Source: Acidimicrobiaceae bacterium (GTDB lineage: Bacteria; Actinomycetota; Acidimicrobiia; Acidimicrobiales; Aldehydirespiratoraceae). Taken from it: 64,000 nucleotides of DNA. A program made the translations under genes and the position numbers. The stretch covers positions 4,556-68,555 of the forward strand of contig JAPOYA010000029.1 in the NCBI GenBank assembly GCA_026706815.1, given 5' to 3'. The notes under the pieces were generated by a model, which ran no database searches, was not told the DNA's origin, and saw only the letters and a program-made list of their open reading frames with translations. This document shows, piece by piece, positions 21,272 through 40,910 of the stretch. The stretch's first letter is position 1. Every line of letters starts with the position of its first letter.

Positions 21272-21347
21272 TGGTGGTCGGGACCGGCGTCGATCCGGTG
21301 ACCTACCGCTTTTCAGGCGGCCGCTCTGCCAACTGAGCTACCCGACC
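21272..21347 (-). tRNA. tRNA-Phe (GAA), CCA encoded
   Basis: The reverse complement is GGTCGGGTAGCTCAGTTGGCAGAGCGGCCGCCTGAAAAGCGGTAGGTCACCGGATCGACGCCGGTCCCGACCACCA. The anticodon loop is CTGAAAA. The T-loop reads ATCGACG, which is unusual (A at position 54). Confidence 0.9.
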
Positions 21348-21371
21348 CCACAGCATCCTCGAGAGAATGCG

Positions 21372-21449
21372 TGGCGGTCCTGACGGGATTTGAACCCGCG
21401 GCCTCCACCTTGACAGGGTGGCGATCACTCCAAACTGATCTACAGGACC
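21372..21449 (-). tRNA. tRNA-Asp (GTC), CCA encoded
   Basis: The reverse complement is GGTCCTGTAGATCAGTTTGGAGTGATCGCCACCCTGTCAAGGTGGAGGCCGCGGGTTCAAATCCCGTCAGGACCGCCA. The anticodon loop is CTGTCAA. Confidence 0.9.
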
Positions 21450-24524: not shown

Positions 24525-24597
24525 CACCCCGTACGGGATTCGAACCCGTGTTACCGGCGTGAAAGGCCGGCGTCCTAGGCCGCTGGACGAACGGGGC
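24525..24597 (-). tRNA. tRNA-Glu (TTC)
   Basis: The reverse complement is GCCCCGTTCGTCCAGCGGCCTAGGACGCCGGCCTTTCACGCCGGTAACACGGGTTCGAATCCCGTACGGGGTG. The anticodon loop is CTTTCAC. CCA is not encoded. Confidence 0.9.
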
Positions 24598-25206: not shown

Positions 25207-25490
25207 TCGTCCTGCTCCATGGTCGCCGAGAGGCCGTGTTCGTGAAGCCGGAAGACGTCGAACTCGGCTTTTTCTCTGGTCCCCGAAGACACCACAGCCT
25301 TGCCTTCGACGTGGACTTCCATCATCAGCCGGTGGGCTTTCTCGGCTGAGTAGCCGAACAGTTTCCGGAACACGAACGCCACGTACGACATCAGGTTGAT
25401 CGGGTCGTCCCAGACCAGCACCTTCCAAGGCCGCGCATAGGCAACCGACTCGTCGGCCTCTGTTTCGGGGGCGATCACTGGTGCCGTCAT
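25203..25490 (-). CDS. clpS: ATP-dependent Clp protease adaptor ClpS
   Basis: '[47 protein letters not shown]' is the ClpS core. Confidence 0.9.
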
Positions 25491-26455
25491 GTCACGGCTT
25501 CTGTTGGATCGGCTCGATCAACGGCCCGATTGACAAGGACCGCGGTGTCCACAGTCGTCGACAGATGCAGCCGGACGATGGCGATCCAACTCACAGAAGC
25601 CCCGAGGATATGGACCCCGACCAGCAGCACGGGGACACCGGCGAAGTACTGCCAGTAGCCGACCACGCCCTGGGCGATCAACAGGCTCACAGCCACCGTG
25701 GCACGCCGGCGGATCTCCGGTTGCTGTCGCAGATGAGCGGAGCGGATGAGCCACACGACTCCCAGCAGCAAGGCCAGTGCGATGATGCTGTGAACGCGCG
25801 TCACCTCGCGCACGAGGAACGGCAGGCGCTGAGCGACTTCTGCCTCGTCGCTCCCGCTGTGGGGTCCCGATCCCGTTACGATTGTGCCACTGACCAGCAG
25901 GATTGCACCGACTGCATAGACAATGCGCGCGGCTGGGGTGAACGGCCCGGCCACGCGGCGAGCAGCGCTGTCGTCACGCCCGGCCAACTCCACGAGCACG
26001 ACCGCGTTGGCCAGAAGCACCATGCTCAACAAGAAGTGGCCCATAGTGAACCTGGGGTCGAGCTCGGTCTTGACCAGCACCGCGCCCAGCACGACCTGTG
26101 CGGCCACCCCGGCGACTAGCCCCCACGACCAGAGCACCAGATCTCTTCGGCGGGGTGAGCGTCGCAGGGAGCCGAGCACAGCCAGGATCACCGCCGCCGC
26201 GACCACGCCGGTGAACAGGCGGTTCGCGAATTCGATCAGGGCGTGATATTCAAGGTCGGCAACGAACTGGTCCTCTTCGCAATTGGGCCAATCGGAGCAG
26301 CCAAGCCCCGAACCCGTGAGGCGTACCGCTCCGCCAGACACCACGATCACAGTCAGTGACCACAGCGCGCCGCGGGTCCAACTCGCGTAGCGAGCAGGGC
26401 TGACCGGCCCGAAAGCAACCGCCCGCAGCGACGTCGAAATAGAGGACACACTCAA
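25487..26455 (-). CDS. ctaA: Haem A synthase (COX15/CtaA family)
   Basis: Polytopic membrane protein with '[16 protein letters not shown]' and 'HALIEFANR', typical of CtaA. TTG or GTG start; it overlaps clpS by 4 bp. Confidence 0.85.
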
Positions 26456-26467
26456 AGCGTACGGCCG

Positions 26468-27403
26468 GTGGCGTGGTCTTGGTTTCGGGGCCGTAGCCTG
26501 ACCGACGTGAGTGAAGCAACTGAGGTCCGATCTCGGTCTCGTGCCGCCGCCTTCGTGGCGTTGACCAAGCCGCGGATCATCGAGCTTCTGCTCATAACCA
26601 CAGTGCCCACCATGGTCGTGGCAGATTCTGGGATCCCGTCGCTCTGGCTGATCGTTGCGACCGTGGTCGGCGGGGCGCTCGCCGCGGGCGGCGCGAACGC
26701 CTTCAACATGTACATCGATCGCGACATCGACCGCCTCATGGAACGCACCAAGGGCCGTCCGCTTGTAACTGGCGAAGTCTCCCCGCGCCAGGCTCTGGTC
26801 TTCGCCTTCGTACTGGAAATCGGCGCCTTCGGATGGCTGTGGGGATTCGTCAACCTGCTGTCGGCTGTGCTGGCAGTTTCAGCCACCCTCTTCTATGTCT
26901 TCGTCTACTCGCTGTGGTTGAAGCGGACCTCTGCGAGCAACATCGTCATCGGCGGCGCCGCCGGAGCGGTGCCGGTTCTGGTCGGCTGGTCCGCGGTCGC
27001 CAACCGGCTTGACTGGCCGCCTCTGGTGCTCTTCGCGATCATCTTCGTTTGGACCCCTCCCCACTTCTGGGCGCTGGCGATCCGTTACAAGGAGGACTAC
27101 GCGGCCGCCGACGTGCCGATGCTGCCAGTCGTCGTGAGCCTCAAGAAGACCGCGAGCAGGATTGTGCTCTACACGCTGCTGCTGTGGGGCCTCACCTTGG
27201 TGTTTGCTCCCGTAGCCGATATGGGCTGGCTGTATCTGTGCTCAGCGGTGCTGCTCGGAGCAGTTTTCTCGGGCTTGGCGGTGCGAGTTTTCCGCAGGCC
27301 TGAGCCGCAGCGGGCAATGCGGCTTTTCGGCTGGTCGATCACTTATGTGACGTTGTTGTTCGCGGCGATGGCCGTTGATGAGGTGGTTCGCAATGGCGTC
27401 TGA
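26468..27403 (+). CDS. ctaB: Protohaem IX farnesyltransferase (haem O synthase)
   Basis: 'ALTKPRIIELLL', 'GGANAFNMYIDRDIDRLMERTKGRPL' and 'TPPHFWALA' are UbiA/CtaB motifs. The start is uncertain (26468 or 26507 GTG). Confidence 0.9.
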   Translation: MAWSWFRGRSLTDVSEATEVRSRSRAAAFVALTKPRIIELLLITTVPTMVVADSGIPSLWLIVATVVGGALAAGGANAFNMYIDRDIDRLMERTKGRPLVTGEVSPRQALVFAFVLEIGAFGWLWGFVNLLSAVLAVSATLFYVFVYSLWLKRTSASNIVIGGAAGAVPVLVGWSAVANRLDWPPLVLFAIIFVWTPPHFWALAIRYKEDYAAADVPMLPVVVSLKKTASRIVLYTLLLWGLTLVFAPVADMGWLYLCSAVLLGAVFSGLAVRVFRRPEPQRAMRLFGWSITYVTLLFAAMAVDEVVRNGV

Positions 27404-27553
27404 CAAACCGCTGCCGCCGGGTTTCTATTCTGGCGCTCGGGTCAAGGTAGGCTTCTCGGCTGGTAACCCAACTCAGCAATCCATTGACAGGCAACGCGCA
27501 GACACATATGCGCGGTGCTGTGCGCCCGGGGCGCTCGGAGGACATTCGCCAAC

Positions 27554-29272
27554 ATGACGATGACCGATTCACCACCAGCTGCGAACACCGCGCTGGCGGC
27601 CGCCTCGCCCCGAGTCGTCGGCCTCTTCGATGCTCTCACCACCACAGACCACAAGCGCATCGGCCGGCTGTGGATTCGGTCGGGCCTGCTCGGGTTGCTG
27701 GCGGCCACTCTCGTCGGCGTTGTCCTGACCATCGAGAACAGCAATTCGTCTCCCGACGACGTCTTCGGCGGGATCAACAACTACTTCCAGTACTTCAGCC
27801 TCTACCGATTCGGTCTGGTGCTGCTGGTGGTGGCTCCGCTGTTCGTGGGACTTGCCACGGTGGTCGTGCCGATGCAGGTAGGTGCAACGAACATCGCTTT
27901 CCCCCGGGCGGCCCACGGCGCGGTCTGGCTGTTCATGATCGGCGCGGGAACCACGGTCGTCTCCGTCGTGTCGGGCGGGGGTTGGGGGGCGTTGGACGGC
28001 GTCACCGGCGCCGAACAAGACGCCATTGCTTTGACCCTGGCCGGCACCGGACTGGTGATCGTCTCGCTGCTGGCGGCCTCTGTCTGTGTTGCAACAACGG
28101 TCGTGTCGCTGCGCACTTCCGGCATGAACCTGATGCGGGTGCCGTTGTTCGCCTGGTCAATGCTGGTCGCGGCCGGCGTTTGGCTGCTGACCCTGCCCGT
28201 GGCGCTCAGCAATCTCGTCTTGGTCTACTTCGATCTCCGCGGCGGTCCCAGAACGCCCGAATCGTTCGGCATCGCCGAGGGGTCGAACGCGATCTACTCG
28301 CAGATCGGCTGGCTGGTCGAGCAACCACAGATCTACGCGTTCGCGATTCCCGTTCTGGGTGTGCTCGGAACCATTGCGCCGGTGGTCGCGAAGCGCCGCC
28401 ATGCACAGCACGTGATCGCAGTCGCCCTGATCGGCCTCTTCGGCCTGCTCTCAGTGGGCGGCTGGAGCCAACCATGGTTCCAGGGCGACAATTACGACGA
28501 GAAGTTCGTGTTCATCGTCTTCGGGCTTTTCGCGGCGATACCGGTGCTCGGTTCGATCGGGGCGGCCGCTGACACAATCGTCGGGCGCGGTTCGGACGGC
28601 GATCCGGATCCAGGCGCAGACGTCGGCGGCGAGAGAGGCCTTGCGGGGCTCTTGTCGGTCTATGGCCTAGGTGCGATCGGTGCTGCTCTGCTGCTGCTCG
28701 CGGGGACTGTCGCCGGGCTGGCACGGGTGATCCAACCCTGGGATCTCGGTGACCGGACCACGGTGACCTCGGTTATGAACCTCGTGCTGTTCAGCGCGGC
28801 CGCGGCAGCGATTGCCGGCATCTGGTTCTGGGCGCCCAAGATCGGCGGCCGCGAACTTCCCGTTTCGACGGGCCGTCTTGCAATGCTCGACGTCGTGGCG
28901 GGCGCGGTCCTGCTCGGCGGAGCGGATTTCGTCAACGGGTTCTTAGAGACTCCCGCGTTCGGGTATCAGGTGGCGGGGAGTTCTGCGCCGCTTGTGGCTG
29001 AGCCTTCGAATCAGGGCTTCGTCGAGGCAATGAACGTGGTCGGAGCCATCGGTGCAGTGCTGATAGCGCTCGGTGCTCTGGCCGTGTTCGCAGCAATGGC
29101 GAAGGCCATGAGATCGAGCGGGGCGGTCGACGACAATCCCTACGGCGGTCAAACCTTGGAATGGACCACCTCGTCTCCTCCACCACCCGGTAACTTCTCA
29201 GAACCACCGGGGCGCGTCGTCTCTGAAGCTCCGTTGCTAGACACAGTGAACGAGAACGGGGAGGAGGCCTGA
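27554..29272 (+). CDS. Cytochrome c oxidase subunit I homologue lacking the canonical haem/CuB histidine ligands
   Basis: Shares 'TTDHKRIG', 'IAFPR', 'WFWAPKIGG' and 'TLEWTTSSPPPP' with the CtaD at 31939. FTMHG aligns to FSLYR, GHPEVY to EQPQIY, WAHHMF to GWSQPWF, and AHFHYV to SVMNLV. GGAGGA lies 11 nt before the ATG at 27554. Confidence 0.75.
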   Translation: MTMTDSPPAANTALAAASPRVVGLFDALTTTDHKRIGRLWIRSGLLGLLAATLVGVVLTIENSNSSPDDVFGGINNYFQYFSLYRFGLVLLVVAPLFVGLATVVVPMQVGATNIAFPRAAHGAVWLFMIGAGTTVVSVVSGGGWGALDGVTGAEQDAIALTLAGTGLVIVSLLAASVCVATTVVSLRTSGMNLMRVPLFAWSMLVAAGVWLLTLPVALSNLVLVYFDLRGGPRTPESFGIAEGSNAIYSQIGWLVEQPQIYAFAIPVLGVLGTIAPVVAKRRHAQHVIAVALIGLFGLLSVGGWSQPWFQGDNYDEKFVFIVFGLFAAIPVLGSIGAAADTIVGRGSDGDPDPGADVGGERGLAGLLSVYGLGAIGAALLLLAGTVAGLARVIQPWDLGDRTTVTSVMNLVLFSAAAAAIAGIWFWAPKIGGRELPVSTGRLAMLDVVAGAVLLGGADFVNGFLETPAFGYQVAGSSAPLVAEPSNQGFVEAMNVVGAIGAVLIALGALAVFAAMAKAMRSSGAVDDNPYGGQTLEWTTSSPPPPGNFSEPPGRVVSEAPLLDTVNENGEEA

Positions 29273-29859
29273 TGGTTACCACCACCGGTCTTCCGGCCCC
29301 CGAGACAACCCGCCCGCGCAGCCTGCTGGTGGGCACGATGTTCAGCTGTGCGGCGGCGTTCATGTTCTTCTGCGGCGTTATCGGCGTCTACATCCTCAAA
29401 CGGGCCGAGGCCCGCGACGAAGGAGCCGAGTGGTTCCCAGAAGGCGTCGTTGAACTCGGGCCCTCGGGTTTCATCTTCTGGACGCTGGTCCTGTCGGTTT
29501 TCACGGTTCAATGGGCCGTGCAGGCGATCAATGCCGACGACCGCATCAACGCCTATGTCGCACTGGCTCTCACCGGGCTGTTCGGAGCCGCGATCTTCAA
29601 TCAGATGTGGTTCATCATCAACGACACCGGGTTTGCGTCGGCTGCGGACAACGCCCAGTTCCTGTTCTTCATCGTCAACGGCACGTTCATCGTCTTTCTG
29701 ATCGCTGCGGTCGTGTTCGTCGCGCTGACGACTGTGCGTGCACTTGCCGGCCAGTTCGGACCGCGCCGAGCCGAAGCCGTGTCTTCAGCGGCTGTGGCTT
29801 GGAACACGGTGGTGTTCATGTGGGCCGTCGTCTACTACCTCATCTACATCACGAAGTAA
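29272..29859 (+). CDS. Cytochrome c oxidase subunit III-like 5-TM protein (degenerate)
   Basis: Collinear with the CtaE at 34014: 'GFHGVHVSLGIVML' aligns to 'VNGTFIVFLIAAVV', and 'YWHFVDVVWIFIFTVIYL' to 'AWNTVVFMWAVVYYLIYI'. ATGA overlap with the upstream gene, with GGAGGAGG as RBS. Confidence 0.65.
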   Translation: MVTTTGLPAPETTRPRSLLVGTMFSCAAAFMFFCGVIGVYILKRAEARDEGAEWFPEGVVELGPSGFIFWTLVLSVFTVQWAVQAINADDRINAYVALALTGLFGAAIFNQMWFIINDTGFASAADNAQFLFFIVNGTFIVFLIAAVVFVALTTVRALAGQFGPRRAEAVSSAAVAWNTVVFMWAVVYYLIYITK

Positions 29860-29866
29860 GGGTCAG

Positions 29867-30655
29867 ATGTTCACCACGGGCTTCAAGTTCTTCTTCGGAA
29901 TCGGGATGGCGTTGGCGACCGGCGCGGTCTTCTACGGCTACACGACGGGCGGCAACCATATGGGACCGCTGTCGATGGGATGGAAGGGCGGTATCGGCGA
30001 GCACCTCGGATACTCGTTGCTGTTGGGGCTCGGCGTCACTGCCATGACGGTGGCGCTGTTCCTGGTGTTCTTCCGGGATGCCGACCCTGCCGCTCAGGCC
30101 CACTACATGGGCGTCGAGCAGATCCCGACCAACAGTCTGGTCACCGCCAGCTTCTGGCCGGTGGTCGGCGCCTTTGCTGTGGGCACAATGGCGATAGGGC
30201 TGGTTCTGCACACAGCGGTGTTCGTCACCGGCTTGGTCGTCTGCGGCGTGGTCGCGATCGAGTGGCTGATGGACGGTTGGGCGGACCGGGCGACGGGTGA
30301 CCCCGAAGCCAATCGGGCTCTGCGCAACCGGGTGATGGCGCCGATCGAGATCCCGGCTCTGGGCGCCGCGATCGTGGCTTTGGGCGTGTTGGCGACCAGC
30401 CGGATCCTGCTGGCCACCTCGAAACTCGGGTCGGTGGTGGTGGCCGGCGTCGTGTCTGTGTTGATTCTCGGCATTGCGGTGTTGTTCGCTCGGAAGACCC
30501 GGATCAACAAGAACATCCTGGCGGGTTCGGTTCTGCTTCTGGCGGTGGCGGTTCTCGTCGGCGGAATCGTCGCTACCGTCACAGGCGAACGAGACTTCCA
30601 TCCACATGAAGTGCACGACGCGCCGCACGGAACCGATACCGGGGAGGGACACTAA
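29867..30655 (+). CDS. Polytopic membrane protein with an actinobacterial CtaF (oxidase subunit IV)-like core plus extra TM helices
   Basis: 'SFWPVVGAFAVGTMAIGLVL...IEWLMDGW' parallels 'SFWPLVLAVGLPLIGYGLIF...FAWALEP' at the C-terminus of the CtaD at 31939. About 7 predicted TM segments. The ATG at 29867 is in frame with ORF 29738. Confidence 0.55.
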   Translation: MFTTGFKFFFGIGMALATGAVFYGYTTGGNHMGPLSMGWKGGIGEHLGYSLLLGLGVTAMTVALFLVFFRDADPAAQAHYMGVEQIPTNSLVTASFWPVVGAFAVGTMAIGLVLHTAVFVTGLVVCGVVAIEWLMDGWADRATGDPEANRALRNRVMAPIEIPALGAAIVALGVLATSRILLATSKLGSVVVAGVVSVLILGIAVLFARKTRINKNILAGSVLLLAVAVLVGGIVATVTGERDFHPHEVHDAPHGTDTGEGH

Positions 30656-30656
30656 G

Positions 30657-31937
30657 GTGAGCGGTTTCATTCGCACAGTGTCCTCCCGGCCTTGCTCGCG
30701 GCGCCGGCCGGAGGGGTTGATCCTCGGACTTGCGCTGGTGTTGACCGGATGCGCCGCCGACGCGGAACTCGACACGTTTCAGGACCAGAGCGAGACCGCC
30801 CGCCAGATCAACGATCTGGCGATTCCCGTGTTCATCGTCGCAGGCGTTGTGCTGGTGCTCGTCTGCGGTGCCATCTTGTGGATGTCGGTCAAGAACCGAG
30901 TACCGGCCGACGACGATTACGAAGGCGAGTTCCCCACCCAGGTCTCACACAACAACAGGCTGGAGATCGGTTGGACGCTCGGCCCCTTCGTGATCATGGT
31001 CGTCATCGCGGTGGCCACGCTGGTGACGCACTTGGCAATCAACAGCACAGAGGCCAACGCCATTGAGATTCAGGTGGAGGTTGACGGCGAGGACGGCAAG
31101 GAAGGCAAGGTCGTGACTTGGGAGCCCAGAGTGGTCGTGGTCGGCCAGCAATGGTGGTGGGAGTACCGCTATTACCTGACCAAGGACATCACCACCGACG
31201 ACCTCGGCGACCCTTGGAACCTTCCCGAAGCCGACATCGTCACCGCAGGGCAGATGGTCATCCCCACGGGCGAGGAAGTCGAACTGATCATCACCTCGCG
31301 AGACGTCATCCACTCGCACTGGATCCCGGCGCTCAACGGCAAGAAGGACGCGGTGCCCGGGCTGTACACCCCTTGGAAGATCGAAGCCGACGAACCGGGC
31401 GTCTACTTCGGGCAGTGCACCGAGTTCTGCGGGTTGTCGCACAGCCGCATGCGAATGCAGGCGGTAGCGGTGACGCCGAGCGCGTTCCAGGAGTGGATCC
31501 ATGCTCAGATGACGCCGGCGACCATGCCGACGGACGAGAACTCCGCTGAGTACCGCGGAATGCAGGTGTTCTCGAACTTCTGCGCCAGCTGCCACCTGAT
31601 AAACGGTCTAAACGACAGCGACTACAACGGTGCCGAGACTGTCTCCGGAAGCGCCCCGGATCTCACCCATTTCGCGGGTCGAACCACGTTCGCGGGCGGT
31701 GTGTTCAACACCTACAACCCAGACGGTTCGCTCAACGACGACGATCTCGCTGCCTGGATCCGCAACCCCGATGATGTGAAGGAAAACTACGCGGACGACC
31801 TCCCAGAGGGCGCCCTCCCGCGCGGGATGCCCGACATGGGGCTCTCCGAGCGACAGATTGACGATGTGATCGCCTTGCTGGCCACGCTCGGCCCAAGACC
31901 GACCGCCGCCCAGATTCTGGCGACAGAGGTGGAGTGA
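30657..31937 (+). CDS. ctaC: Cytochrome c oxidase subunit II fused to a cytochrome c domain (caa3-type), lipoprotein
   Basis: Lipobox 'LVLTGC', CuA site 'HSHWIPALNGK...CTEFCGLSHSRM', and haem c motif 'CASCH'. GTG at 30657 follows GGGGAGGGA. Confidence 0.9.
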   Translation: MSGFIRTVSSRPCSRRRPEGLILGLALVLTGCAADAELDTFQDQSETARQINDLAIPVFIVAGVVLVLVCGAILWMSVKNRVPADDDYEGEFPTQVSHNNRLEIGWTLGPFVIMVVIAVATLVTHLAINSTEANAIEIQVEVDGEDGKEGKVVTWEPRVVVVGQQWWWEYRYYLTKDITTDDLGDPWNLPEADIVTAGQMVIPTGEEVELIITSRDVIHSHWIPALNGKKDAVPGLYTPWKIEADEPGVYFGQCTEFCGLSHSRMRMQAVAVTPSAFQEWIHAQMTPATMPTDENSAEYRGMQVFSNFCASCHLINGLNDSDYNGAETVSGSAPDLTHFAGRTTFAGGVFNTYNPDGSLNDDDLAAWIRNPDDVKENYADDLPEGALPRGMPDMGLSERQIDDVIALLATLGPRPTAAQILATEVE

Positions 31938-31938
31938 G

Positions 31939-34011
31939 ATGACCATCACGGAACCCACTACCGAGGGGCCCAAAACCGAGGGGCCGCTAGAACTCGAATC
32001 CGGCCGCGAGGCTCTGGCGGAGCGACCGCTCGGGGTGCTCACCCGGCCGCAGGGAGGCAGGGGTTGGCGTGACTGGTTGAGCACCGTCGACCACAAGAAG
32101 ATCGGGATCATGTACGGCGTTTCCGCCATGGTCTTCTTCGTGGTGGGCGGCATCGAGGCCCTGCTGATCCGTTTGCAGCTGGCGGTGCCCAACGGTGGTG
32201 TGCTGTCGGCCGATGTCTACAACCAGGTGTTCACCATGCACGGCGTGACCATGGTGTTCCTGTTCATCATGCCTTTGGCAGCGGCTTTCGCGAACTATCT
32301 GATTCCGCTTCAGATCGGCGCCAGAGATGTGGCGTTCCCGCGGCTCAACGCGCTCTCGTATTGGGTCTGGCTGTCTGGGGCGATCTTCTTGAACAGTTCT
32401 TGGATCGTCGGCGGAGGCGGAGCGGACTGTGGCTGGTTCTGCTACTCGCCCAACAGCGGTGTGACCTTCTCGCCGAGCCACGGCGTCGACTTCTATGCGA
32501 TCGGCTTGCTGATCGCCGGTATCGCCTCGTTGGTCTCAGCCATCAACCTGATCGTCACGTGTCTCAATATGCGGGCCCCCGGGATGGACTTGTTCCGCAT
32601 GCCGGTCATGACCTGGATGCTGTTGATCACCCAGTTCCTGCTGCTGTTCGCGTTGCCGGTCATCACCGTCGCTCTGTTCCTGTTGATGTTCGACCGCCTG
32701 TTCGACGCCAGCTTCTTCAATCCCGACGCGGGCGCCGATCCGTTGTTGTGGCAGCACCTCTTCTGGATATTCGGGCATCCCGAGGTCTACATCATCATTC
32801 TGCCCGCCTTCGGCGTCGTGTCCGAAGTGATCCCGACGTTCAGCCGCAAACCCATATTCGGCTACACGTTCATGGTGTTCTCGGGTATAGCCATCGGCTT
32901 CATGGGATGGGGGGTCTGGGCTCATCACATGTTCGTGTCGGGTATCGGTCCGATCTCGGTGGCGGCGTTCTCGTTGTCGACGATGTTCATTGCGGTGCCG
33001 ACGGGCGTGAAGGTCTTGAACTGGTTGGCCACCATGTGGGGCGGACAGATCCGCTTCACAACGGCAATGCTCTTCGCGGTGGGAACGGTGGCTATGTTCA
33101 CCATCGGCGGGCTTTCGGGGGTGACCCACGCTCTGGCGCCCGCTGACACCCAACAGACCGACACTTATTACATCGTGGCTCATTTCCACTATGTGATCTT
33201 CGGTGGCGGTGTGCTCGGGTTGATGGGCGGCCTCTACTACTGGTGGCCGAAGATATTCGGTTACATGCTCAACGAGCGCCGCGGCAAGATCAATTTCTGG
33301 TTGATGCTCATCGGCTTCAACCTGACCTTCGGGCCGATGCACATACTCGGACTGCAGGGGATGAGCCGTCGTATCGACACCTATTCATCGGGGTTCGGGT
33401 TCGAGTTCTGGAACATGGTGGCGACCATCGGCTCGTTCATCATCGCGGTCTCGGTTGTGGTCCTGTTCCACAACATCTGGAAGTCGAAACGAGAGGCGGC
33501 CGACCTGCCGCCCCCGGGTCCTGATCCCTGGGACGCACGAAGCCTTGAGTGGATGGTTCCCTCGCCGGTGCCCGAGCACAACTTCGATGAAGTTCCCACG
33601 GTGGAGGGCCTCGACGAGTGGTGGCACCGCAAATACAGCTTTGACGACGACGGCAGGGTCGTGCAGATCGCCACGGCTGAAGAAGCAGCCCAGGACGGCT
33701 CGGCCAAGGGCGTGCATCTGCCCGCGCCCTCGTTCTGGCCGCTGGTGCTGGCTGTGGGCCTGCCGTTGATCGGCTATGGACTGATATTCAACCTGTGGCT
33801 CTGCGTGCCCGGCGGTCTGTTGGTCGGCATGGGCATCTTCGCCTGGGCCCTCGAGCCTGTAGACGACCCCGATGCGACCCACGACCACCACGACGACGAC
33901 CACGGCGACGATGATGACGACCACGACGACACTGCCTCGGCTCCGGTTGCGCCCGGCGATGACACTGCCTCGGCTCCGGTTGCGCCCGGCGAGCAGCAGG
34001 GAGGTGAGTGA
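31939..34011 (+). CDS. ctaD: Cytochrome c oxidase subunit I with a fused CtaF-like two-TM C-terminal extension and an acidic His/Asp tail
   Basis: All canonical ligand motifs are present: 'FTMHG', 'GHPEVY', 'WAHHMF' and 'AHFHYV'. The C-terminal 'SFWPLVLAVGLPLIGYGL...' is followed by 'THDHHDDDHGDDDDDHDD' and two 'DTASAPVAPG' repeats. Confidence 0.95.
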   Translation: MTITEPTTEGPKTEGPLELESGREALAERPLGVLTRPQGGRGWRDWLSTVDHKKIGIMYGVSAMVFFVVGGIEALLIRLQLAVPNGGVLSADVYNQVFTMHGVTMVFLFIMPLAAAFANYLIPLQIGARDVAFPRLNALSYWVWLSGAIFLNSSWIVGGGGADCGWFCYSPNSGVTFSPSHGVDFYAIGLLIAGIASLVSAINLIVTCLNMRAPGMDLFRMPVMTWMLLITQFLLLFALPVITVALFLLMFDRLFDASFFNPDAGADPLLWQHLFWIFGHPEVYIIILPAFGVVSEVIPTFSRKPIFGYTFMVFSGIAIGFMGWGVWAHHMFVSGIGPISVAAFSLSTMFIAVPTGVKVLNWLATMWGGQIRFTTAMLFAVGTVAMFTIGGLSGVTHALAPADTQQTDTYYIVAHFHYVIFGGGVLGLMGGLYYWWPKIFGYMLNERRGKINFWLMLIGFNLTFGPMHILGLQGMSRRIDTYSSGFGFEFWNMVATIGSFIIAVSVVVLFHNIWKSKREAADLPPPGPDPWDARSLEWMVPSPVPEHNFDEVPTVEGLDEWWHRKYSFDDDGRVVQIATAEEAAQDGSAKGVHLPAPSFWPLVLAVGLPLIGYGLIFNLWLCVPGGLLVGMGIFAWALEPVDDPDATHDHHDDDHGDDDDDHDDTASAPVAPGDDTASAPVAPGEQQGGE

Positions 34012-34087
34012 CCATGACCACAGAAACCTCGGCTCCCGTTGCATCTGATGCCGACACCGCTGCCGCGGCTCTGGTTGCGCCCGGCGA
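33928..34087 (+). repeat. Tandem copies of the dispersed repeat (core GCGGCTCCGGTTGCGCCCGGCG) spanning the ctaD/ctaE junction
   Basis: Two 33-bp copies lie at 33928-33959 and 33961-33992. A degenerate copy sits at 34025-34050 and another good copy at 34053-34087. The ctaD stop and ctaE start lie between them. Confidence 0.85.
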
Positions 34088-34670
34088 CAGCAACGATCAC
34101 GGACCCACCACCGGCATCTCCAACACCAAGCTGGCGATGTGGCTGTTCCTCGGTTCGGAGTGTCTGCTGTTCGGCGGTCTGATCTCGACCTACCTGCTCT
34201 ACAAGACCCGCCGCGGCCCGGACAATCTGGCGATCCCGACAGACGTGTTCGACATTCCGTTCACTTCGATCAGCTCGTTCGTCCTGTTGATGAGCTCGCT
34301 GACAATGGTGCTCGCGCTCGCCGCGCTCACTCGGGGCGACAACCACGGTGCGCGTGTCTGGCTGCTGGCGACGAGCATGCTCGGCGGCGTGTTCATCGGC
34401 GGCCAGGTGTATGAGTTCACCAGCTTCCTGCGCGAGGGGGTCGGCTTCACCAACAATCCGGCCAGTTCCGCGTTCTACGCGTTGACCGGATTCCACGGGG
34501 TTCACGTCAGTCTCGGCATCGTGATGCTGATGTCGTTGTTCGTTGCCTCATGGCAGGGGAAGCTCCGTCAAGAGCATTCCGAGACCGTCGAGATCGTGGG
34601 TCTCTACTGGCACTTCGTCGACGTGGTGTGGATCTTCATCTTCACTGTCATCTATCTGGTTCCCGCCTAG
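34014..34670 (+). CDS. ctaE: Cytochrome c oxidase subunit III
   Basis: 'LAMWLFLGSECLLFGGLI', 'FYALTGFHGVHVSLG' and 'YWHFVDVVWIFIF'. The start is either ATG 34014 or GTG 34008, which overlaps the ctaD stop. Confidence 0.9.
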   Translation: MTTETSAPVASDADTAAAALVAPGDSNDHGPTTGISNTKLAMWLFLGSECLLFGGLISTYLLYKTRRGPDNLAIPTDVFDIPFTSISSFVLLMSSLTMVLALAALTRGDNHGARVWLLATSMLGGVFIGGQVYEFTSFLREGVGFTNNPASSAFYALTGFHGVHVSLGIVMLMSLFVASWQGKLRQEHSETVEIVGLYWHFVDVVWIFIFTVIYLVPA

Positions 34671-34686: not shown

Positions 34687-35070
34687 ATGAACACGACGAC
34701 CTCTGAACACGAAGCCCCCGACGCAGAAGAAGCCACTGTGCCCAAAGAAGCCACTGTGCCTGAAGACGGCGCGCGGGAGCACTCCGAGCACGAGCACCCG
34801 TCTGACTGGGATTACGTCAAGATCGCCCTGATCCTCGCGGTCATCACCGCAGTCGAGGTCTTCACCTACTTCGAGTCGGTATACGACTGGGGCAGTCTTC
34901 TGATCCCGTCCTTGCTGATAATGATGGTGGTCAAGTTCTGGCTGGTGGCGACCTGGTTCATGCACCTGAAGTTCGACAACCCGATCTTCTCGAAGATGTT
35001 CGTCGGAGGGTTGTTGCTGGCCGTCGGCGTGTATGTCGCTGCGCTTGCAGCTTTCGAGTTCTGGGCGTGA
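34687..35070 (+). CDS. ctaF: Cytochrome c oxidase subunit IV (Bacillus CtaF/CoxIV type)
   Basis: Small 3-TM protein, 'YVKIALILAVITAVEVFTYF...VKFWLVATWFMHLKFD', typical of the prokaryotic subunit IV family. The N-terminus carries an 18-bp in-frame duplication (EATVPK/EATVPE). Confidence 0.8.
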   Translation: MNTTTSEHEAPDAEEATVPKEATVPEDGAREHSEHEHPSDWDYVKIALILAVITAVEVFTYFESVYDWGSLLIPSLLIMMVVKFWLVATWFMHLKFDNPIFSKMFVGGLLLAVGVYVAALAAFEFWA

Positions 35071-35075
35071 TTTGA

Positions 35076-36011
35076 ATGGACGGGCCTTGGGAGTTCGAGG
35101 CCCATCCCGCAGTCTGGATGCTGATAGCGGGGATCGTGGCTCTCGGCTACTACGCGGTTCGACATATCGGACCCATGGTGGTGCCCGCCGGGCAGACCAT
35201 CGTGACGAAACGGCAGAAGCGCTGTTTCGCGCTTGCGGTGTTCCTGCTGTGGGTAGCTGCGGACTGGCCGATGCACGACATCGCCGAGGAATACCTCTAC
35301 TCGGTCCACATGGGCCAGCACCTGCTGATCGCCTTCATCGTCCCGCCGCTGATGCTGCTGGCTATGCCGGAGTGGTTGGCCCGCCTGATCGTGATCGACG
35401 GAGGCGCGGCGTCGCGGGCGCTGCGGGCCCTCACCCGCCCTGTTGTCGCAGCGGTCATATTCAATGCCCTGCAGATCCTGTCGCACTGGTCCGCGGTCGT
35501 CAACCTGTCGGTTGAGAACGGGGTCTTCCACTACACCATCCATCTTGCGGTGTTCTTCTCGGCGCTGTTGATGTGGTTCCCGGTGGTGGGTCCGCTCCCC
35601 GAACTTCAGATGAGCGAGCCGGGAAAGATGGTCTACCTGTTCACCAGTTCGATCGTGCCGACGGTCCCTGCGGGCTGGTTGACCTTCGCGGAGGGCGTTG
35701 TCTATTCGGCTTACGACCATGCTGATCCGCTGTGGGGCATATCTCCGACCGATGACCAACAGGCCGCCGGAGCGGTGATGAAAGTCATCGGAGGCTTCTA
35801 CCTCTGGGCGCTCATCACCATCCGCTACTTCCGCTTCACTTCCGGGCGCCGCGAGGCTGATCTTGTGGCTCGGCGTTCCCGCAGGCAACCCGCCCTGAAA
35901 CCGGAGACGGAGCGTGTTGGCGCGGTTGCCCTCACTGGCGATCTGACGTTCGGTGACGTGCAGCGGGCATTCGATGAGAATCCCGAGCCACCGCGCGAAG
36001 CCCCAACATGA
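35076..36011 (+). CDS. ctaG: Cytochrome c oxidase assembly factor CtaG (caa3 type)
   Basis: Polytopic protein with 'HMGQHLLIAFIVPPLMLLAMP' and 'VMKVIGGFYLW', characteristic of Bacillus-type CtaG. Confidence 0.8.
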   Translation: MDGPWEFEAHPAVWMLIAGIVALGYYAVRHIGPMVVPAGQTIVTKRQKRCFALAVFLLWVAADWPMHDIAEEYLYSVHMGQHLLIAFIVPPLMLLAMPEWLARLIVIDGGAASRALRALTRPVVAAVIFNALQILSHWSAVVNLSVENGVFHYTIHLAVFFSALLMWFPVVGPLPELQMSEPGKMVYLFTSSIVPTVPAGWLTFAEGVVYSAYDHADPLWGISPTDDQQAAGAVMKVIGGFYLWALITIRYFRFTSGRREADLVARRSRRQPALKPETERVGAVALTGDLTFGDVQRAFDENPEPPREAPT

Positions 36012-38493: not shown

Positions 38494-39135
38494 ATGGACA
38501 TGGCCGCGATGCGTGAAGAGTTCGGGCGCGCCGGTCTTGATGTCTCAGATGTCGCAGAAGATCCGATTGTGCAGTTCCGTGAGTGGTTCGACCTCTGGAA
38601 GACCGTCGACCCCCACCTCGCGGACACCATGGTGCTGTCCACGGTCGACGCTGAGGGTTGGCCGGATGCCCGCGCCGTTCTGTTGAAGGGCGTCGATAGC
38701 CGCGGGTTCGTTTTCTTTACCAACCGCACCTCGGCCAAGGGCGTCCAACTTGAAGCCGGCGGGCGCGCCGCGCTGACGATGGTGTGGCGGGAGATTGAGC
38801 GGCAGGTTCGGGTTGTCGGAGAGGTCAGCCGCGTCCCCGAGTCGGAATCCGACGCGTACTTCGCGAGCCGTCCGAGAGGTGCACAGATCGGTGCGTGTGC
38901 GAGCGAACAGTCCGCAGTGCTCGGCTCGCGGGCCGAGCTCGAGGCGCGCGTAGCGGAACTGGAACAGCAGTATCCGAACAAGATTCCGAGGCCGGCTCAT
39001 TGGGGCGGTTACCTGGTCGCTCCTCGAAGTGTGGAGTTCTGGCAGGGCCGTCCTGACCGTCTTCACGACCGGGTCCGCTATCGCCTCGAAACGGATGCCG
39101 CGGACGCCTGGATTGTCGAGCGTCTAGCCCCCTGA
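38494..39135 (+). CDS. pdxH: Pyridoxamine 5'-phosphate oxidase
   Basis: 'ARAVLLKGVDSRGFVFFTNRTSAKG', 'ERQVRVVGEV', 'SRPRGAQIGA' and 'EFWQGRPDRLHDRVRY' are PdxH motifs. Confidence 0.9.
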   Translation: MDMAAMREEFGRAGLDVSDVAEDPIVQFREWFDLWKTVDPHLADTMVLSTVDAEGWPDARAVLLKGVDSRGFVFFTNRTSAKGVQLEAGGRAALTMVWREIERQVRVVGEVSRVPESESDAYFASRPRGAQIGACASEQSAVLGSRAELEARVAELEQQYPNKIPRPAHWGGYLVAPRSVEFWQGRPDRLHDRVRYRLETDAADAWIVERLAP

Positions 39136-40251
39136 CTCGGTTGCCGCCTCTGGGGCGAGAGGATTGCGGGCGCGCAGATATCTGGTGATCCGCCGCCACG
39201 CGAGCCAAACGACGAGTGCCGTAAAGGCCGCTTCGATGGGCGCACCGAACCGCAACGGGTCGCTGAACCAGTGGGCGATCCGCAGCGGCCAACCTCCGAT
39301 GAGGCGGACCAGCGGCAGGAAGATGAACTCTCCCCGGTTGAACAGGAACTCGATTATCAGGTAGCTGCAGATGTAACCGGCGCTGACGCTGATTCGCTTG
39401 ACTCGGTCGCTTTCAAGGTCCCGCCAGCCGATTATCAGCGCGCCGATCACGCCCAGAATACTGATCACCGCGATGCGCTCCGGGGTCGTGTCCTGGATCC
39501 AGTTGTTGACCGCCGCTTGCATCTCCAGGAAACGGTCGACCCTGGGGCTTGAGTAATTGTCGCCTGACAGCACCCGGATCTCGAAGTACCCGTAGTCGAT
39601 CAGGTAGAGACCGGCGATCAGGAGCACCAAACCTGAGAAACGCCCCACGTAGGGCAGCACCTGTCGCATCCCCTTGGCCACATCGGTTTTGGCGAGCGCC
39701 AGACTCATGGTCAAGAAGGTGATCAGAGCGCCCATGCCCAGCGCGTAGGCGAGGAAGTTGCCGAGTCCTTTCAGCCATCCGTCCGTCGTGAACGAGGTTG
39801 TGACCGACGACAGGAAAAGCCCGATGGTGCACGACAGTGAGACCACGGCGTAGCTCACCCCGAAGAGGAAGACCGATGAGAGGTCACGGCTGCCGGTCCC
39901 GAGGTTCAGTTTCGGGAGCCGCAGCACGAAGTCCTTGCCGAGCGCCATGAAGACCCCTAGGGGAAGCATCAATGCGCCGATCGCGATCGTCACATAGCCT
40001 GTGTACTCGAAGACTGTGCCTTCGCTGACGATCGTCTCGAATGCCACTCCGCAGAGCCCGAACACCGCGATGAATCCAGCGGTCATGACCAAGCCCACGA
40101 CTAGGCCGCGCACGATGGTGGCCAGCCGACTGGCTTTCTTGTCGCCGTCGACACCTAGAAAATAGGAGAGGTAGACGGGCAGCAGCGCGAAACCGCACGG
40201 GTTGAACGCGGCTACCAGACCCAGCGCGAAAGGAAAGGCGTAGACACCCAT
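39124..40251 (-). CDS. ccdA: CcdA/DsbD-family thiol:disulfide transmembrane electron transporter with an extra C-terminal membrane domain
   Basis: 'AAFNPCGFALLPVYLSYF' and a second-half Cys in 'VVSLSCTIGLF'. About 135 additional C-terminal residues carry further TM helices. The 3' end overlaps the pdxH 3' end by 12 bp (convergent). Confidence 0.8.
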   Translation of the reverse strand: MGVYAFPFALGLVAAFNPCGFALLPVYLSYFLGVDGDKKASRLATIVRGLVVGLVMTAGFIAVFGLCGVAFETIVSEGTVFEYTGYVTIAIGALMLPLGVFMALGKDFVLRLPKLNLGTGSRDLSSVFLFGVSYAVVSLSCTIGLFLSSVTTSFTTDGWLKGLGNFLAYALGMGALITFLTMSLALAKTDVAKGMRQVLPYVGRFSGLVLLIAGLYLIDYGYFEIRVLSGDNYSSPRVDRFLEMQAAVNNWIQDTTPERIAVISILGVIGALIIGWRDLESDRVKRISVSAGYICSYLIIEFLFNRGEFIFLPLVRLIGGWPLRIAHWFSDPLRFGAPIEAAFTALVVWLAWRRITRYLRARNPLAPEAATESGG

Positions 40252-40314
40252 TACGTTGTGCCTATCAGAACTGCGTGCATTTCAGAACGATGGGCATCAG
40301 AGAACCTGCGCGCA

Positions 40315-40884: not shown

Positions 40885-40910
40885 CGGAAACCTGGCAAGA
40901 CGCTACCTCG

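What the first reader, a model, noticed from the sequence alone, without database searches (positions are those of the whole stretch)
27554..30655. Cofactor-less shadow set of oxidase subunits I, III and IV inserted between ctaB and ctaC
The cta cluster reads ctaA / ctaB - X - Y - Z - ctaC - ctaD - ctaE - ctaF - ctaG.
- X (27554-29272) is unmistakably a haem-copper oxidase subunit I homologue. It shares TTDHKRIG, IAFPR, WFWAPKIGG and the C-terminal TLEW..SPPPP with the canonical CtaD 4.4 kb downstream.
- In my manual alignment every canonical ligand position in X is substituted. Helix II FTMHG becomes FSLYR, the CuB GHPEVY becomes EQPQIY, WAHHMF becomes GWSQPWF, and helix X AHFHYV becomes SVMNLV.
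- Y (29272-29859) is collinear with subunit III but has lost GFHGVHV and WHFVD.
- Z (29867-30655) repeats the SFWP... two-helix unit that is fused to the C-terminus of the real CtaD, then adds more TM helices.
- The three genes are intact, tightly coupled (an ATGA overlap and a 7-bp gap) and have good RBSs, so they do not look like pseudogenes.

An oxidase-shaped membrane module that cannot bind haem a, haem a3 or CuB is not something I know to be described. Possible roles are an assembly scaffold or chaperone, a supercomplex spacer, or a proton- or ion-conducting module that uses the retained channels. These roles are speculation.
Basis: partly seen in the sequence, partly recalled or inferred. 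Interest (0 to 1): 0.85.

Follow-up and report, generated by a model that had tools for sequence, protein, structure and literature searches.

The report
Cofactor-less oxidase paralogues in cta operon
Three intact, strongly conserved genes at the head of a cytochrome c oxidase operon encode copies of the oxidase's membrane core that have lost every haem and copper ligand; this looks like the first "dead-enzyme" paralogue set seen in this respiratory enzyme family, and its function is still unknown.

Summary
X (27554-29272) is a 12-helix haem-copper oxidase subunit I homologue in which all six ligand His are replaced. It has only four His in total, and the D- and K-channel residues are gone too. 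Y (29272-29859) is a 5-helix subunit III homologue with no His. Z (29867-30655) is a 7-helix protein of no known family. Its helices 3-4 match the two-helix hairpin fused to the real CtaD C-terminus.

The three genes are translationally coupled to each other and to ctaC. The order X-Y-Z-ctaC-ctaD is kept in 62 of 71 Acidimicrobiales genomes; the other 9 are cut by contig ends. dN/dS is 0.02-0.4, so they are not pseudogenes.

New here:
- The family is large: at least 150 clusters at 50% identity.
- Cofactor loss is graded. No member keeps CuB, but about 17% keep the bis-His pair of the low-spin haem.
- In four of the five haem-His relatives whose operon I read, Z carries a type-1 blue-copper domain on the outer side.

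The window's set is the fully stripped end state of a once redox-active accessory module. The most likely present role is a redox-inert structural or assembly partner of the caa3 oxidase; this is inferred, not shown. I found no description in the literature.

The parts
25487..26455 (-). ctaA (haem A synthase), divergent neighbour; context
   Evidence: Pfam COX15-CtaA 87 bits. It sits in the same position in relatives.
26468..27403 (+). ctaB (haem O synthase); context
   Evidence: Pfam UbiA 226.5 bits. It lies within 400 nt upstream of X in 66 of 71 related loci.
27404..27553 (+). Conserved ctaB-X intergenic region; likely promoter and 5' leader of the X-Y-Z-ctaCDEFG unit (inferred)
   Evidence: Long identical stretches in relatives whose X is 75-90% identical. 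A TAGGCT hexamer fits a TANNNT -10 (my reading). A GGAGGA ribosome-binding site lies 11 nt before ATG 27554. The sigma-70 consensus scan found nothing here.
27554..29272 (+). X: 12-helix haem-copper oxidase subunit I paralogue without haem a, haem a3 or CuB ligands and without D/K channel residues
   Evidence: Pfam COX1 120.6 bits. TIGR02891 194.5 bits against a cut-off of 670.75. Ligand columns. Four His in total. AF2 model pLDDT 79.8, pTM 0.84. Foldseek TM-scores to subunit I chains 0.56-0.83 over the two normalisations. The start is supported by the conserved N-terminus MTMTESPP.
29272..29859 (+). Y: 5-helix subunit III paralogue with no His
   Evidence: Pfam COX3 27.5 bits (cut-off 23.8). 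NF050119 aa3_CtaE_Actin 44.7 bits. hhalign against CtaE: probability 98.6%, E 1e-15. Best solved relative is mycobacterial CtaE 6adq_G at 36.6 bits.
29867..30655 (+). Z: 7-helix membrane protein of no named family. Helices 3-4 (residues 92-137) match the hairpin fused to CtaD. It has a conserved cytoplasmic loop WADRATGDPEANRxLRNR and a His/acid-rich C-terminal tail predicted to lie outside the cell.
   Evidence: No Pfam, NCBIfam or PDB sequence hit. hhalign against the CtaD C-terminus: probability 87%, E 4e-6. The Z profile gives weak hits to COX3 helices 1-2. Seven helices appear in the low-confidence AF2 model, pLDDT 52.8. 666 homologues, all unnamed. Topology comes from the positive-inside rule (my count on the sequence) and from the outer-side cupredoxin in relatives.
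30658..31937 (+). ctaC: subunit II with CuA site and fused cytochrome c domain; lipoprotein signal (LVLTGC); starts 2 nt after Z's stop
   Evidence: The translation shows HSHW...CTEFCGLSHSRM and CASCH. COX2 and Cytochrom_C domains are present in orthologues.
31939..34011 (+). ctaD: canonical subunit I with all six His, plus a C-terminal two-helix hairpin and a His/Asp-rich tail
   Evidence: Pfam COX1 526 bits, Cyt_c_ox_IV 24.2 bits. TIGR02891 693.5 bits, above its cut-off. Ligand pattern HHHHHH.
34008..34670 (+). ctaE: canonical 5-helix subunit III
   Evidence: Pfam COX3 74 bits. CyoC, QoxC and aa3_CtaE_Actin score 132-140 bits.
34687..35070 (+). ctaF: caa3-type subunit IV
   Evidence: TIGR02229 caa3_sub_IV 30.1 bits, below its cut-off of 37.25. 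COX4_pro in orthologues. Start at MNTTTSE.
35076..36011 (+). ctaG: Caa3_CtaG assembly factor
   Evidence: Pfam Caa3_CtaG 138 bits.

Best explanation
**What it is (shown).** X, Y and Z are an old paralogous copy of the oxidase membrane core.
- X is a subunit I fold.
- Y is a 5-helix subunit III.
- Z supplies the two-helix hairpin that the real CtaD carries at its own C-terminus, plus five more helices.

The set has lost all redox cofactor sites and both proton channels. It is still produced from the same operon as the active caa3 oxidase and is kept by purifying selection.

**How it arose (shown in outline).** Relatives with the same gene order show a graded series. None keeps CuB. Some keep the bis-His pair of the low-spin haem. 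In four of the five haem-His loci I read (L068, L078, L079, L082), Z ends in a type-1 blue-copper domain on the outer face. So the ancestral module most likely carried an outer copper centre and a membrane haem beside the oxidase. The window's lineage is the end state with no cofactors.

**How it works now (inferred by elimination).** The three proteins assemble into a redox-inert, oxidase-shaped membrane module. It binds the CtaC-D-E-F oxidase as a permanent structural partner, or acts as an assembly platform for it. The closest parallel is the cofactor-poor paralogue that pairs with the catalytic subunit in cytochrome bd oxidases. It does not reduce oxygen, carry electrons or pump protons through the canonical paths.
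For: **Homology and fold**
-.

**No ligands**
- All six His columns are substituted in X and in most close homologues.
- X has four His in total and Y has none.
- The D-channel Asp and K-channel Lys are absent in all 128 representatives.

**Not decaying**
- ORFs are intact with the order X-Y-Z-ctaC-ctaD in 62 of 71 species-level loci. The other 9 are cut by contig ends and there are no exceptions.
- The same order holds in metagenome contigs where X is only about 32-36% identical.
- Nei-Gojobori dN/dS:

| Gene | dN/dS |
|---|---|
| X | 0.05-0.27 |
| Y | 0.02-0.40 |
| Z | 0.04-0.23 |
| ctaC | 0.04-0.19 |
| ctaD | 0.03-0.20 |

**Co-production with the oxidase**
- The X-Y junction is TGATG, the Y-Z gap is 7 nt and the Z-ctaC gap is 2 nt. 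There is no convincing terminator inside the unit.
- A conserved upstream leader precedes X.

**Graded loss across 128 representatives**

| His in the six ligand columns | Representatives |
|---|---|
| 0 | 74 |
| 1 | 27 |
| 2 | 22 |
| 3 | 3 |
| 4 | 2 |
| 6 | 0 |

- The helix II His and the second helix X His are kept together in 22 (Fisher p 2e-9).
- Lineages that keep His branch nearest the real CtaD in a rough NJ tree.

**Blue copper on Z in relatives that keep haem His**
- L068: Cupredoxin_1 32.1 bits (cut-off 27) and Copper-bind 25.6 bits (cut-off 21.2).
- L079: Cupredoxin_1, with PHNVAIY...FRCDVHPNM.
- L078: YHNVAIY...FKCDFHPTM.
- L082: Copper-bind 26.3 bits (cut-off 21.2).

**Conserved surface**
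- Positions conserved across the whole X family are mostly those shared with the real CtaD. They lie on the cytoplasmic-face loops plus fold-forming Pro, Gly and Trp.
- This fits a preserved scaffold rather than a new active site.
Against: - There is no direct evidence of physical association with CtaCDEF. Operon membership and coupling show co-expression, not binding.
- I could not run a multimer structure prediction, and the Z model was unusable (pLDDT 52.8).
- Some replaced positions are themselves conserved. Gln stands at the second CuB His column in 89 of 128 representatives, and Gln at the first CuB His column and at the E286 column in about half. That could mark a new polar site with a function of its own.
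- X evolves faster than CtaD: 48% identity where CtaD is 83%. Constraint is looser than on a core catalytic subunit.
- No expression data were available.
- No cultured organism with the module was identified.
Confidence: 0.5

Rival explanations
1. **Independent non-redox function.** X-Y-Z has been re-used as a transporter, ion channel or small-molecule binding module built on the oxidase fold. It sits in the cta operon only for co-regulation.
For: - The former binuclear-centre positions are not random. Gln at the second CuB column occurs in 89 of 128 representatives, Gln at the E286 column in 65 of 128, and Tyr or Phe at the cross-link Tyr column in 95 of 128.
- Family-specific conserved termini (MTMTESPP, SEAPLLD) and Z's invariant cytoplasmic loop WADRATGDPEANR could be interaction or gating elements.
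Against: - The canonical D and K pathway residues are absent in every representative.
- Across the wide family, almost all positions conserved at 80% or more are shared with the real CtaD and are structural.
- The gene order with ctaCDEF has no exception in 71 loci. That argues for a functional tie to the oxidase rather than mere co-regulation.
Confidence: 0.15
2. **Transient assembly factor.** X-Y-Z is a mould-like chaperone that holds CtaC or newly made subunits, or hands over copper through Z's His-rich outer tail, and is absent from the mature enzyme.
For: - It lies between the haem A synthesis genes (ctaA, ctaB) and the structural genes, and the same operon holds CtaG.
- Z's tail after the last helix is His/acid-rich in most relatives that lack the cupredoxin. 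By topology it lies where relatives have a copper domain.
- One relative has a thioredoxin-like gene between Z and ctaC.
Against: - Tight translational coupling points to production in amounts similar to the structural subunits. That is unusual for an assembly factor.
- A 12 + 5 + 7 helix complex is a costly chaperone.
- No known oxidase assembly factor has this fold (review PMC9145763).
- The tail sequence is not conserved in detail.
Confidence: 0.2
3. **Decaying duplicates.** X, Y and Z are pseudogenes on their way out, or artefacts of gene calling.
For: - All catalytic residues are lost.
- X diverges faster than CtaD.
Against: - ORFs are intact in more than 70 species-level genomes spanning 30-90% identity. 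Frameshifts appear only in two loci where all neighbouring genes are broken too (L069, L076).
- dN/dS is well below 1 for all three genes.
- Ribosome-binding sites and coupling are conserved.
- At least 150 clusters at 50% identity exist.
Confidence: 0.02
4. **Still a haem protein.** X binds haem or a metal through non-His ligands, for example the Tyr at the helix II column, and remains redox-active.
For: - Tyr replaces the helix II His in 62 of 74 close homologues.
- The cross-link Tyr column is Tyr in 57 of 74.
Against: - In the wider family the helix II column is H, Y, S, G, F or A, and the helix X columns vary freely (V, Q, L / A, N, L). No alternative ligand is conserved.
- X has one Cys and no conserved Met or Lys at these columns.
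Confidence: 0.08

Closest known systems
A-family haem-copper oxidase core (CtaD / CtaE plus the C-terminal hairpin), e.g. the neighbouring caa3 oxidase, mycobacterial aa3 (6hwh, 6adq) and Thermus caa3 (2yev)
   Same: - X has the same 12-helix fold: TM-scores 0.56-0.83 over the two normalisations and Pfam COX1 over the full length.
- Y is collinear with 5-helix subunit III.
- Z contains the hairpin that other oxidases carry on subunit I, on subunit III or on CtaF.
- The best solved relatives are the mycobacterial CtaD (139 bits) and CtaE (36.6 bits).
   Different: - There are no haem a, haem a3 or CuB ligands, no D or K channel, and no subunit II partner of its own.
- X scores 194.5 bits against the CtaD equivalog cut-off of 670.75.
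CydA' / CydB-type partners in cytochrome bd oxidases (a paralogue of the catalytic subunit serving as the second subunit)
   Same: - Concept: a duplicated copy of the catalytic membrane subunit co-associates with the active copy.
- The 'b'-type paralogues lack the functional residues. The paper reports that CydAA' is formed by co-association of two superfamily paralogues and that 'b'-type subfamilies lack the proton-channel residues (bioRxiv 10.1101/2021.01.16.426971, read).
   Different: - It is an unrelated superfamily.
- There the pairing is shown biochemically. Here association is only inferred.
- Here a whole three-protein core is duplicated, not a single subunit.
Sulfocyanin SoxE / membrane-anchored blue-copper proteins of archaeal terminal oxidase supercomplexes
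   Same: - This applies to the distant relatives only. Their Z carries an outer-side type-1 copper domain with a His, Cys, His, Met ligand set.
- There is a weak SoxE hit of 19.3 bits, cut-off 21.
- The gene lies inside an oxidase operon.
   Different: - The window's Z has no cupredoxin domain at all.
- Even in the relatives the anchor is a 7-helix protein, not a single helix.
- Similarity to SoxE is below threshold.
NorE / orphan subunit-III-like accessory proteins of NO reductase and oxidase clusters
   Same: A subunit III homologue is encoded as an accessory next to a haem-copper superfamily enzyme (my own knowledge, not tested here).
   Different: - Y comes with its own subunit I-like partner.
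- No comparison with NorE sequences was run.

Membership tests
Haem-copper oxidoreductase superfamily, subunit I (Pfam COX1 PF00115) | 12-helix subunit I fold and a sequence match above the family threshold | tested here: met
   120.6 bits against a cut-off of 34.8, model positions 1-435 of 436. AF2 model pTM 0.84. Foldseek TM-scores to subunit I chains 0.56-0.83 over the two normalisations.
Haem-copper oxidoreductase superfamily, subunit I (functional enzyme) | Six conserved His: two for the low-spin haem, one for the high-spin haem and three for CuB/FeB | tested here: not met
   The columns read Y, Q, Q, P, V, N in X. X has only four His, none at these columns.
A-family cytochrome c oxidase CtaD (NCBIfam TIGR02891 equivalog) | Whole-protein score above the curated cut-off; D- and K-channel residues present | tested here: not met
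   194.5 bits against a cut-off of 670.75. The D-channel Asp is Asn, the Glu equivalent to E286 is Gln, and the K-channel Lys is Ser.
NO reductase-type HCO families (cNOR, qNOR, eNOR, bNOR, sNOR, gNOR, nNOR) | Haem ligands and a three-His (or His/Asp) metal site are retained; the active-site Tyr is missing | tested here: not met
   No haem or metal-site His is present. The defining features are taken from PMC11214002.
Cytochrome oxidase subunit III (Pfam COX3 PF00510) | Sequence match above threshold; collinear 5-helix core | tested here: met
   Y scores 27.5 bits against a cut-off of 23.8. hhalign against CtaE: probability 98.6%, 162 aligned columns.
Actinobacterial aa3 CtaE (NCBIfam NF050119) | Score above the curated cut-off of 190 | tested here: not met
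   Y scores 44.7 bits. It is still Y's best NCBIfam hit.
Actinobacterial subunit IV CtaF (Pfam Cyt_c_ox_IV PF12270) | Sequence match to the 4-helix model | tested here: inconclusive
   Z has no hit at E <= 0.1. Z residues 92-137 match the CtaD C-terminal hairpin (hhalign E 4e-6). That hairpin itself hits PF12270 positions 76-125 at 24.2 bits, below the cut-off of 26.9.
caa3-type subunit IV (COX4_pro / TIGR02229) | Similarity to the operon's own CtaF | tested here: not met
   hhalign of Z against CtaF: probability 1.4%.
Subunit II (COX2) or cupredoxin | Cupredoxin domain with copper ligands | tested here: not met
   The window's Z ends 22 residues after its last helix. hhalign of Z against CtaC: probability 0.7%. 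Only distant relatives carry a type-1 cupredoxin.
Pseudogene / decaying duplicate | Frameshifts or stops in orthologues; dN/dS near 1 | tested here: not met
   The genes are intact in more than 70 loci. dN/dS is 0.02-0.40.
Subunit of the caa3 oxidase holo-complex | Physical co-purification or a structure with CtaCDEF | not testable with these tools
   Only operon linkage and translational coupling are available.

The most novel reading that the evidence does not exclude
Acidimicrobiales respire with an asymmetric terminal oxidase. An active caa3 unit is permanently paired with a full-size, cofactor-free pseudo-oxidase (X-Y-Z) that descends from a blue-copper- and haem-bearing electron-entry arm. 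This would be the first pseudoenzyme subunit set known in the haem-copper oxidase superfamily. The living intermediates would show step by step how a redox enzyme turns into a pure scaffold.
Probability: 0.35. Interest if true: 0.85.

Novelty: new variant of a known kind. Interest (0 to 1): 0.75.

Why it matters
**A rule would be broken.** Haem-copper oxidases are among the best-studied membrane enzymes, and the six ligand His of subunit I are treated as universal for the superfamily. Here a large, selected family keeps the fold but none of the cofactors, and it always sits at the head of a caa3 operon.

**What would follow if it is a subunit.**
- It would change how the respiratory chain of a widespread marine, soil, sponge-associated and wastewater group (Acidimicrobiales, including Microthrix relatives) is drawn.
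- It would give a natural series for studying how redox proteins lose cofactors: blue copper plus haem, then haem only, then nothing.

**A practical point.** These genes are annotated as "cbb3-type cytochrome c oxidase subunit I". That inflates counts of terminal oxidases in metagenome surveys.

Tried and rejected
- **Z structure.** The AF2 model of Z from a 26-sequence alignment had pLDDT 52.8. It was too poor for a fold search, so only the helix count was used.
- **Z against solved structures.** As a single sequence Z found nothing. As a profile it gave only weak COX3 N-terminal hits (E 0.04-3.5) and designed helical repeats.
- **Z against other oxidase subunits.** hhalign against CtaF (COX4_pro) and against CtaC found no relation. 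The idea that Z's last helices are a subunit II remnant has no support.
- **Literature.** Eight searches or readings found no paper describing a ligand-less subunit I.
- **Cultured hosts.** The species-level genome scan and the third protein search returned only MAG or metagenome names.
- **Promoter and terminator scan.** Counts were at the shuffled expectation and gave no information.
- **Rfam scan of the window.** It found only four tRNAs.
- **Relic of the actinobacterial aa3.**
  - The idea was that X-Y-Z descend from the actinobacterial aa3 (CtaD/CtaE/CtaF) and are not a copy of the neighbouring caa3.
  - Hints: X and Y score best against mycobacterial CtaD and CtaE, and Y's best NCBIfam hit is aa3_CtaE_Actin.
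  - I had no outgroup sequences for a proper tree, so this stays open.
- **L081.** This COX1-like gene with four His sits in a different gene context. I left it out of the X-Y-Z family.
- **NJ tree.** The tree is rough (BLOSUM distances, long branches). I use it only as a hint of branching order.

Full report
**1. The observation**

Pfam and NCBIfam confirm the gene order ctaA(-), ctaB, X, Y, Z, ctaC, ctaD, ctaE, ctaF, ctaG.

The downstream oxidase is a complete caa3 type:
- CtaC has the CuA motif and a CASCH cytochrome c domain.
- CtaD scores 693.5 bits on TIGR02891, above its cut-off, and has all six ligand His.
- CtaE, a caa3-type subunit IV and Caa3_CtaG follow.

X (27554-29272):
- It matches Pfam COX1 from end to end at 120.6 bits. 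CtaD scores 526.
- It is 25% identical to CtaD, E 1e-36.

| Real CtaD | X |
|---|---|
| FTMHG | FSLYR |
| GHPEVY | EQPQIY |
| WAHHMF | WSQPWF |
| AHFHYV | SVMNLV |

- This does not depend on alignment detail. X has only four His in 572 residues (33, 121, 283, 286), and Y has none.
- The channel residues are gone as well. The D-channel Asp is Asn, the Glu equivalent to E286 is Gln, and the K-channel Lys is Ser.
- An AF2 model of X (60-sequence alignment, pLDDT 79.8, pTM 0.84) has 12 long helices. It superposes on solved subunit I chains with TM-scores of 0.56-0.83 over the two normalisations.

Y (29272-29859):
- It passes the COX3 threshold (27.5 against 23.8 bits).
- It aligns to CtaE over 162 columns with hhalign probability 98.6%.
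- GFHGVHV and WHFVD are replaced.

Z (29867-30655):
- It has no family hit.
- Residues 92-137 match the two-helix hairpin at the C-terminus of CtaD (hhalign probability 87%, E 4e-6).

Junctions:
- A GGAGGA ribosome-binding site lies 11 nt before ATG 27554.
- X and Y share TGATG, a 1-nt overlap rather than ATGA.
- The Y-Z gap is 7 nt.
- ctaC starts at GTG 30658, 2 nt after Z's stop.

**2. Not pseudogenes, and not rare**

- X finds 546 proteins at E <= 1e-10. The best 120 are 46-100% identical, and all come from Acidimicrobiia or Actinomycetota MAGs. They are usually named "cbb3-type cytochrome c oxidase subunit I" or hypothetical.
- A scan of one genome per species found 72 loci. The closest (about 89-90% identity) are Acidimicrobiales and "Acidimicrobiaceae" MAGs. 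Others are Aldehydirespiratoraceae and Microthrixaceae.
- In 62 of 71 loci the order X-Y-Z-ctaC-ctaD is complete. The other nine are cut by contig ends, and there is no exception. ctaB lies within 400 nt upstream in 66.
- Nei-Gojobori dN/dS over 13 close pairs:

| Gene | dN/dS |
|---|---|
| X | 0.05-0.27 |
| Y | 0.02-0.40 |
| Z | 0.04-0.23 |
| ctaC | 0.04-0.19 |
| ctaD | 0.03-0.20 |

- X does evolve faster than CtaD: for example 48% identity where CtaD is 83%.

**3. The family is large and cofactor loss is graded**

An exhaustive search of 1.84 billion 50%-identity representatives gave 201 hits at E <= 1e-30. The best 150 all score 151 bits or more. That is more than X scores against any solved oxidase, where the best is 139 bits.

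I aligned the 128 full-length representatives with real CtaD sequences and read the six ligand columns:

| His in the six columns | Representatives |
|---|---|
| 0 | 74 |
| 1 | 27 |
| 2 | 22 |
| 3 | 3 |
| 4 | 2 |
| 6 | 0 |

- The second CuB His is never kept and is Gln in 89 of 128. The first CuB His is kept in 6.
- The helix II His and the second helix X His are the axial pair of the low-spin haem. They are kept together in 22 representatives (Fisher p 2e-9).
- The D-channel Asp and the K-channel Lys are absent in all.
- In a rough NJ tree rooted on CtaD, the lineages that keep His branch first and the zero-His forms, including the window's X, are nested. Bis-His forms also occur inside nested clades, which suggests repeated loss.

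**4. Z in the less degenerate relatives carries blue copper**

The Z alignment showed C-terminal extensions in the most distant loci.

| Locus | X ligand columns | Z C-terminus |
|---|---|---|
| L068 | three haem His (STLHG, AHAHLT) | Cupredoxin_1 32.1 bits (cut-off 27), Copper-bind 25.6 bits (cut-off 21.2); motif VPHNIAF...FRCDVHPDQM |
| L079 | bis-His | PHNVAIY...FRCDVHPNM |
| L078 | bis-His | YHNVAIY...FKCDFHPTM |
| L082 | three His | Copper-bind 26.3 bits; weak SoxE 19.3 bits; a second free-standing cupredoxin gene lies before ctaC |
| L080 | three His | no extension |
| L070, L072-L075 | one His | a roughly 110-residue extension with no copper ligands |

- All these loci keep the same operon order.
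- Topology. My count on the Z sequence puts about 10 Lys/Arg in the N-terminus and loops 2, 4 and 6, against 3-4 in the other loops. This places the N-terminus inside and the C-terminus outside. That fits an outer-side copper domain.
- In the window's Z the domain is gone. Only a His/acid-rich tail (FHPHEVHDAPHGTDTGEGH) remains. Such tails are common in cupredoxin-less Z.

**5. What Z's hairpin is**

- The Z family profile gives weak but consistent hits (E 0.04-3.5) to the first two helices of 7-helix subunit III (...PSPWP...).
- The CtaD C-terminal hairpin hits the extra C-terminal helices of B. subtilis QoxB (E 0.1), C. glutamicum subunit IV residues 80-125 (E 9.5), and Pfam Cyt_c_ox_IV positions 76-125 at 24.2 bits.
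- It is established knowledge, from memory and not tested here, that oxidases with a 5-helix subunit III carry the missing two helices elsewhere.
- So X (12 helices) + Y (5) + the Z hairpin reproduce a full subunit I plus III core. The remaining five helices of Z have no detectable relative.

**6. How it most likely works**

Shown:
- The window's X-Y-Z cannot bind haem a, haem a3 or CuB at the canonical sites.
- It lacks the canonical proton paths.
- It is co-encoded and translationally coupled with the active oxidase.
- It is under purifying selection.
- It descends from forms with a low-spin haem site and an outer blue-copper domain.

Inferred:
- The ancestral module was an electron-carrying arm beside the oxidase. 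Type-1 Cu over a membrane haem mirrors CuA over haem a.
- In the window's lineage that role was given up. What selection still keeps is the body of the protein.
- Positions conserved across the whole family are almost all those shared with real CtaD: the cytoplasmic-face loops DHK..G, PLQxG...AFPR, R..GM...P.F.W, W.PK..G and TLEW.SPP..F, plus Pro, Gly and Trp. This fits a preserved scaffold.
- I therefore favour a redox-inert structural or assembly partner of the caa3 oxidase (confidence about 0.5). The permanent-subunit version is somewhat more likely than a transient chaperone, because of the coupling to ctaC.

Against this:
- There is no direct evidence of association.
- The conserved Gln residues at the former CuB site and the family-specific termini MTMTESPP and SEAPLLD could mark a function I cannot see.

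**7. Comparison with what is known**

- X is a member of the COX1 fold family, but it fails every functional criterion of an oxidase or NO reductase.
- The new HCO families described in PMC11214002 all keep haem ligands and a metal site.
- The nearest concept is in cytochrome bd oxidases, where a paralogue of the catalytic subunit that lacks functional residues pairs with it (bioRxiv 10.1101/2021.01.16.426971).
- The blue-copper form of Z recalls sulfocyanin.
- No paper in the searchable library describes a ligand-less subunit I, and the review of oxidase assembly proteins does not list anything like it.

**8. Verdict**

- I rate it a new variant of a known kind: a pseudoenzyme branch of the haem-copper oxidase superfamily.
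- Interest is 0.75. It would surprise a specialist, the evolutionary series is unusually complete, and clear experiments exist, but the present function is not established.

Noticed in passing
L068:8156-9109; L079:5549-6523; L078:10346-11338; L082:2629-3669: In distant relatives Z is fused to a C-terminal type-1 blue-copper (cupredoxin) domain with a His, Cys, His, Met ligand set. In the same operons X keeps the low-spin haem His pair or three haem His. L070 and L072-L075 have a domain of similar size without copper ligands.
   Followed up: yes
window 27404-27553: The 150-nt ctaB-X spacer is conserved almost base for base in relatives whose proteins are only 75-90% identical. It holds a TAGGCT hexamer that fits an actinobacterial -10, and a GC-rich stretch (GCGCGGTGCTGTGCGCC) just before the ribosome-binding site. 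It may be a promoter plus a structured leader.
   Followed up: partly
window 33880-34011 (CtaD C-terminus): The real CtaD ends in a His/Asp-rich run (DATHDHHDDDHGDDDDDHDD) followed by an exact 11-residue tandem repeat (DDTASAPVAPG twice). With 14 helices this tail would be cytoplasmic. Its length varies among relatives: CtaD is 668-706 aa.
   Followed up: no
L078:11338-11904: One relative has a thioredoxin-like (AhpC-TSA/Redoxin, TlpA-like) gene inserted between Z and ctaC. The window has a similar gene plus a CcdA-like gene 4-5 kb downstream on the other strand (39124-40902).
   Followed up: partly
L072:1385-5902 and L073: In this deep-branching group ctaB is 4.6-4.8 kb from X. The gap holds DUF1501 and DUF1800 genes, and a response regulator plus histidine kinase pair lies directly upstream of X.
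   Followed up: partly
L081:1946-3538: This is a different orphan COX1-like gene. It has His at four of the six ligand columns: helix II, the second CuB column and both helix X columns. It is followed by a 397-aa UbiA-family gene and two large proteins with no Pfam hit. It is not in a cta operon and is probably a separate degenerate subunit I family.
   Followed up: no
L082:3683-4069 (- strand): A free-standing 128-aa cupredoxin gene (Cupredoxin_1 39 bits) lies between Z and ctaC in one relative.
   Followed up: no
window 30658-30750: ctaC starts with GTG and encodes a lipoprotein-type signal with the lipobox LVLTGC, so subunit II is probably lipid-anchored. The mechanical ORF list starts it 184 nt too early (TTG 30474), overlapping Z.
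   Followed up: partly
window 6395-6477, 21275-21449, 24525-24597 (- strand): Four tRNA genes are present. They are the only Rfam matches in the window.
   Followed up: no
database annotation of P0005, P0014, P0025, P0044, P0364 and others: Public records name these ligand-less proteins "cbb3-type cytochrome c oxidase subunit I" or "heme/copper-type cytochrome/quinol oxidase subunit 1". Automated counts of terminal oxidases in Acidimicrobiia MAGs will be too high.
   Followed up: no
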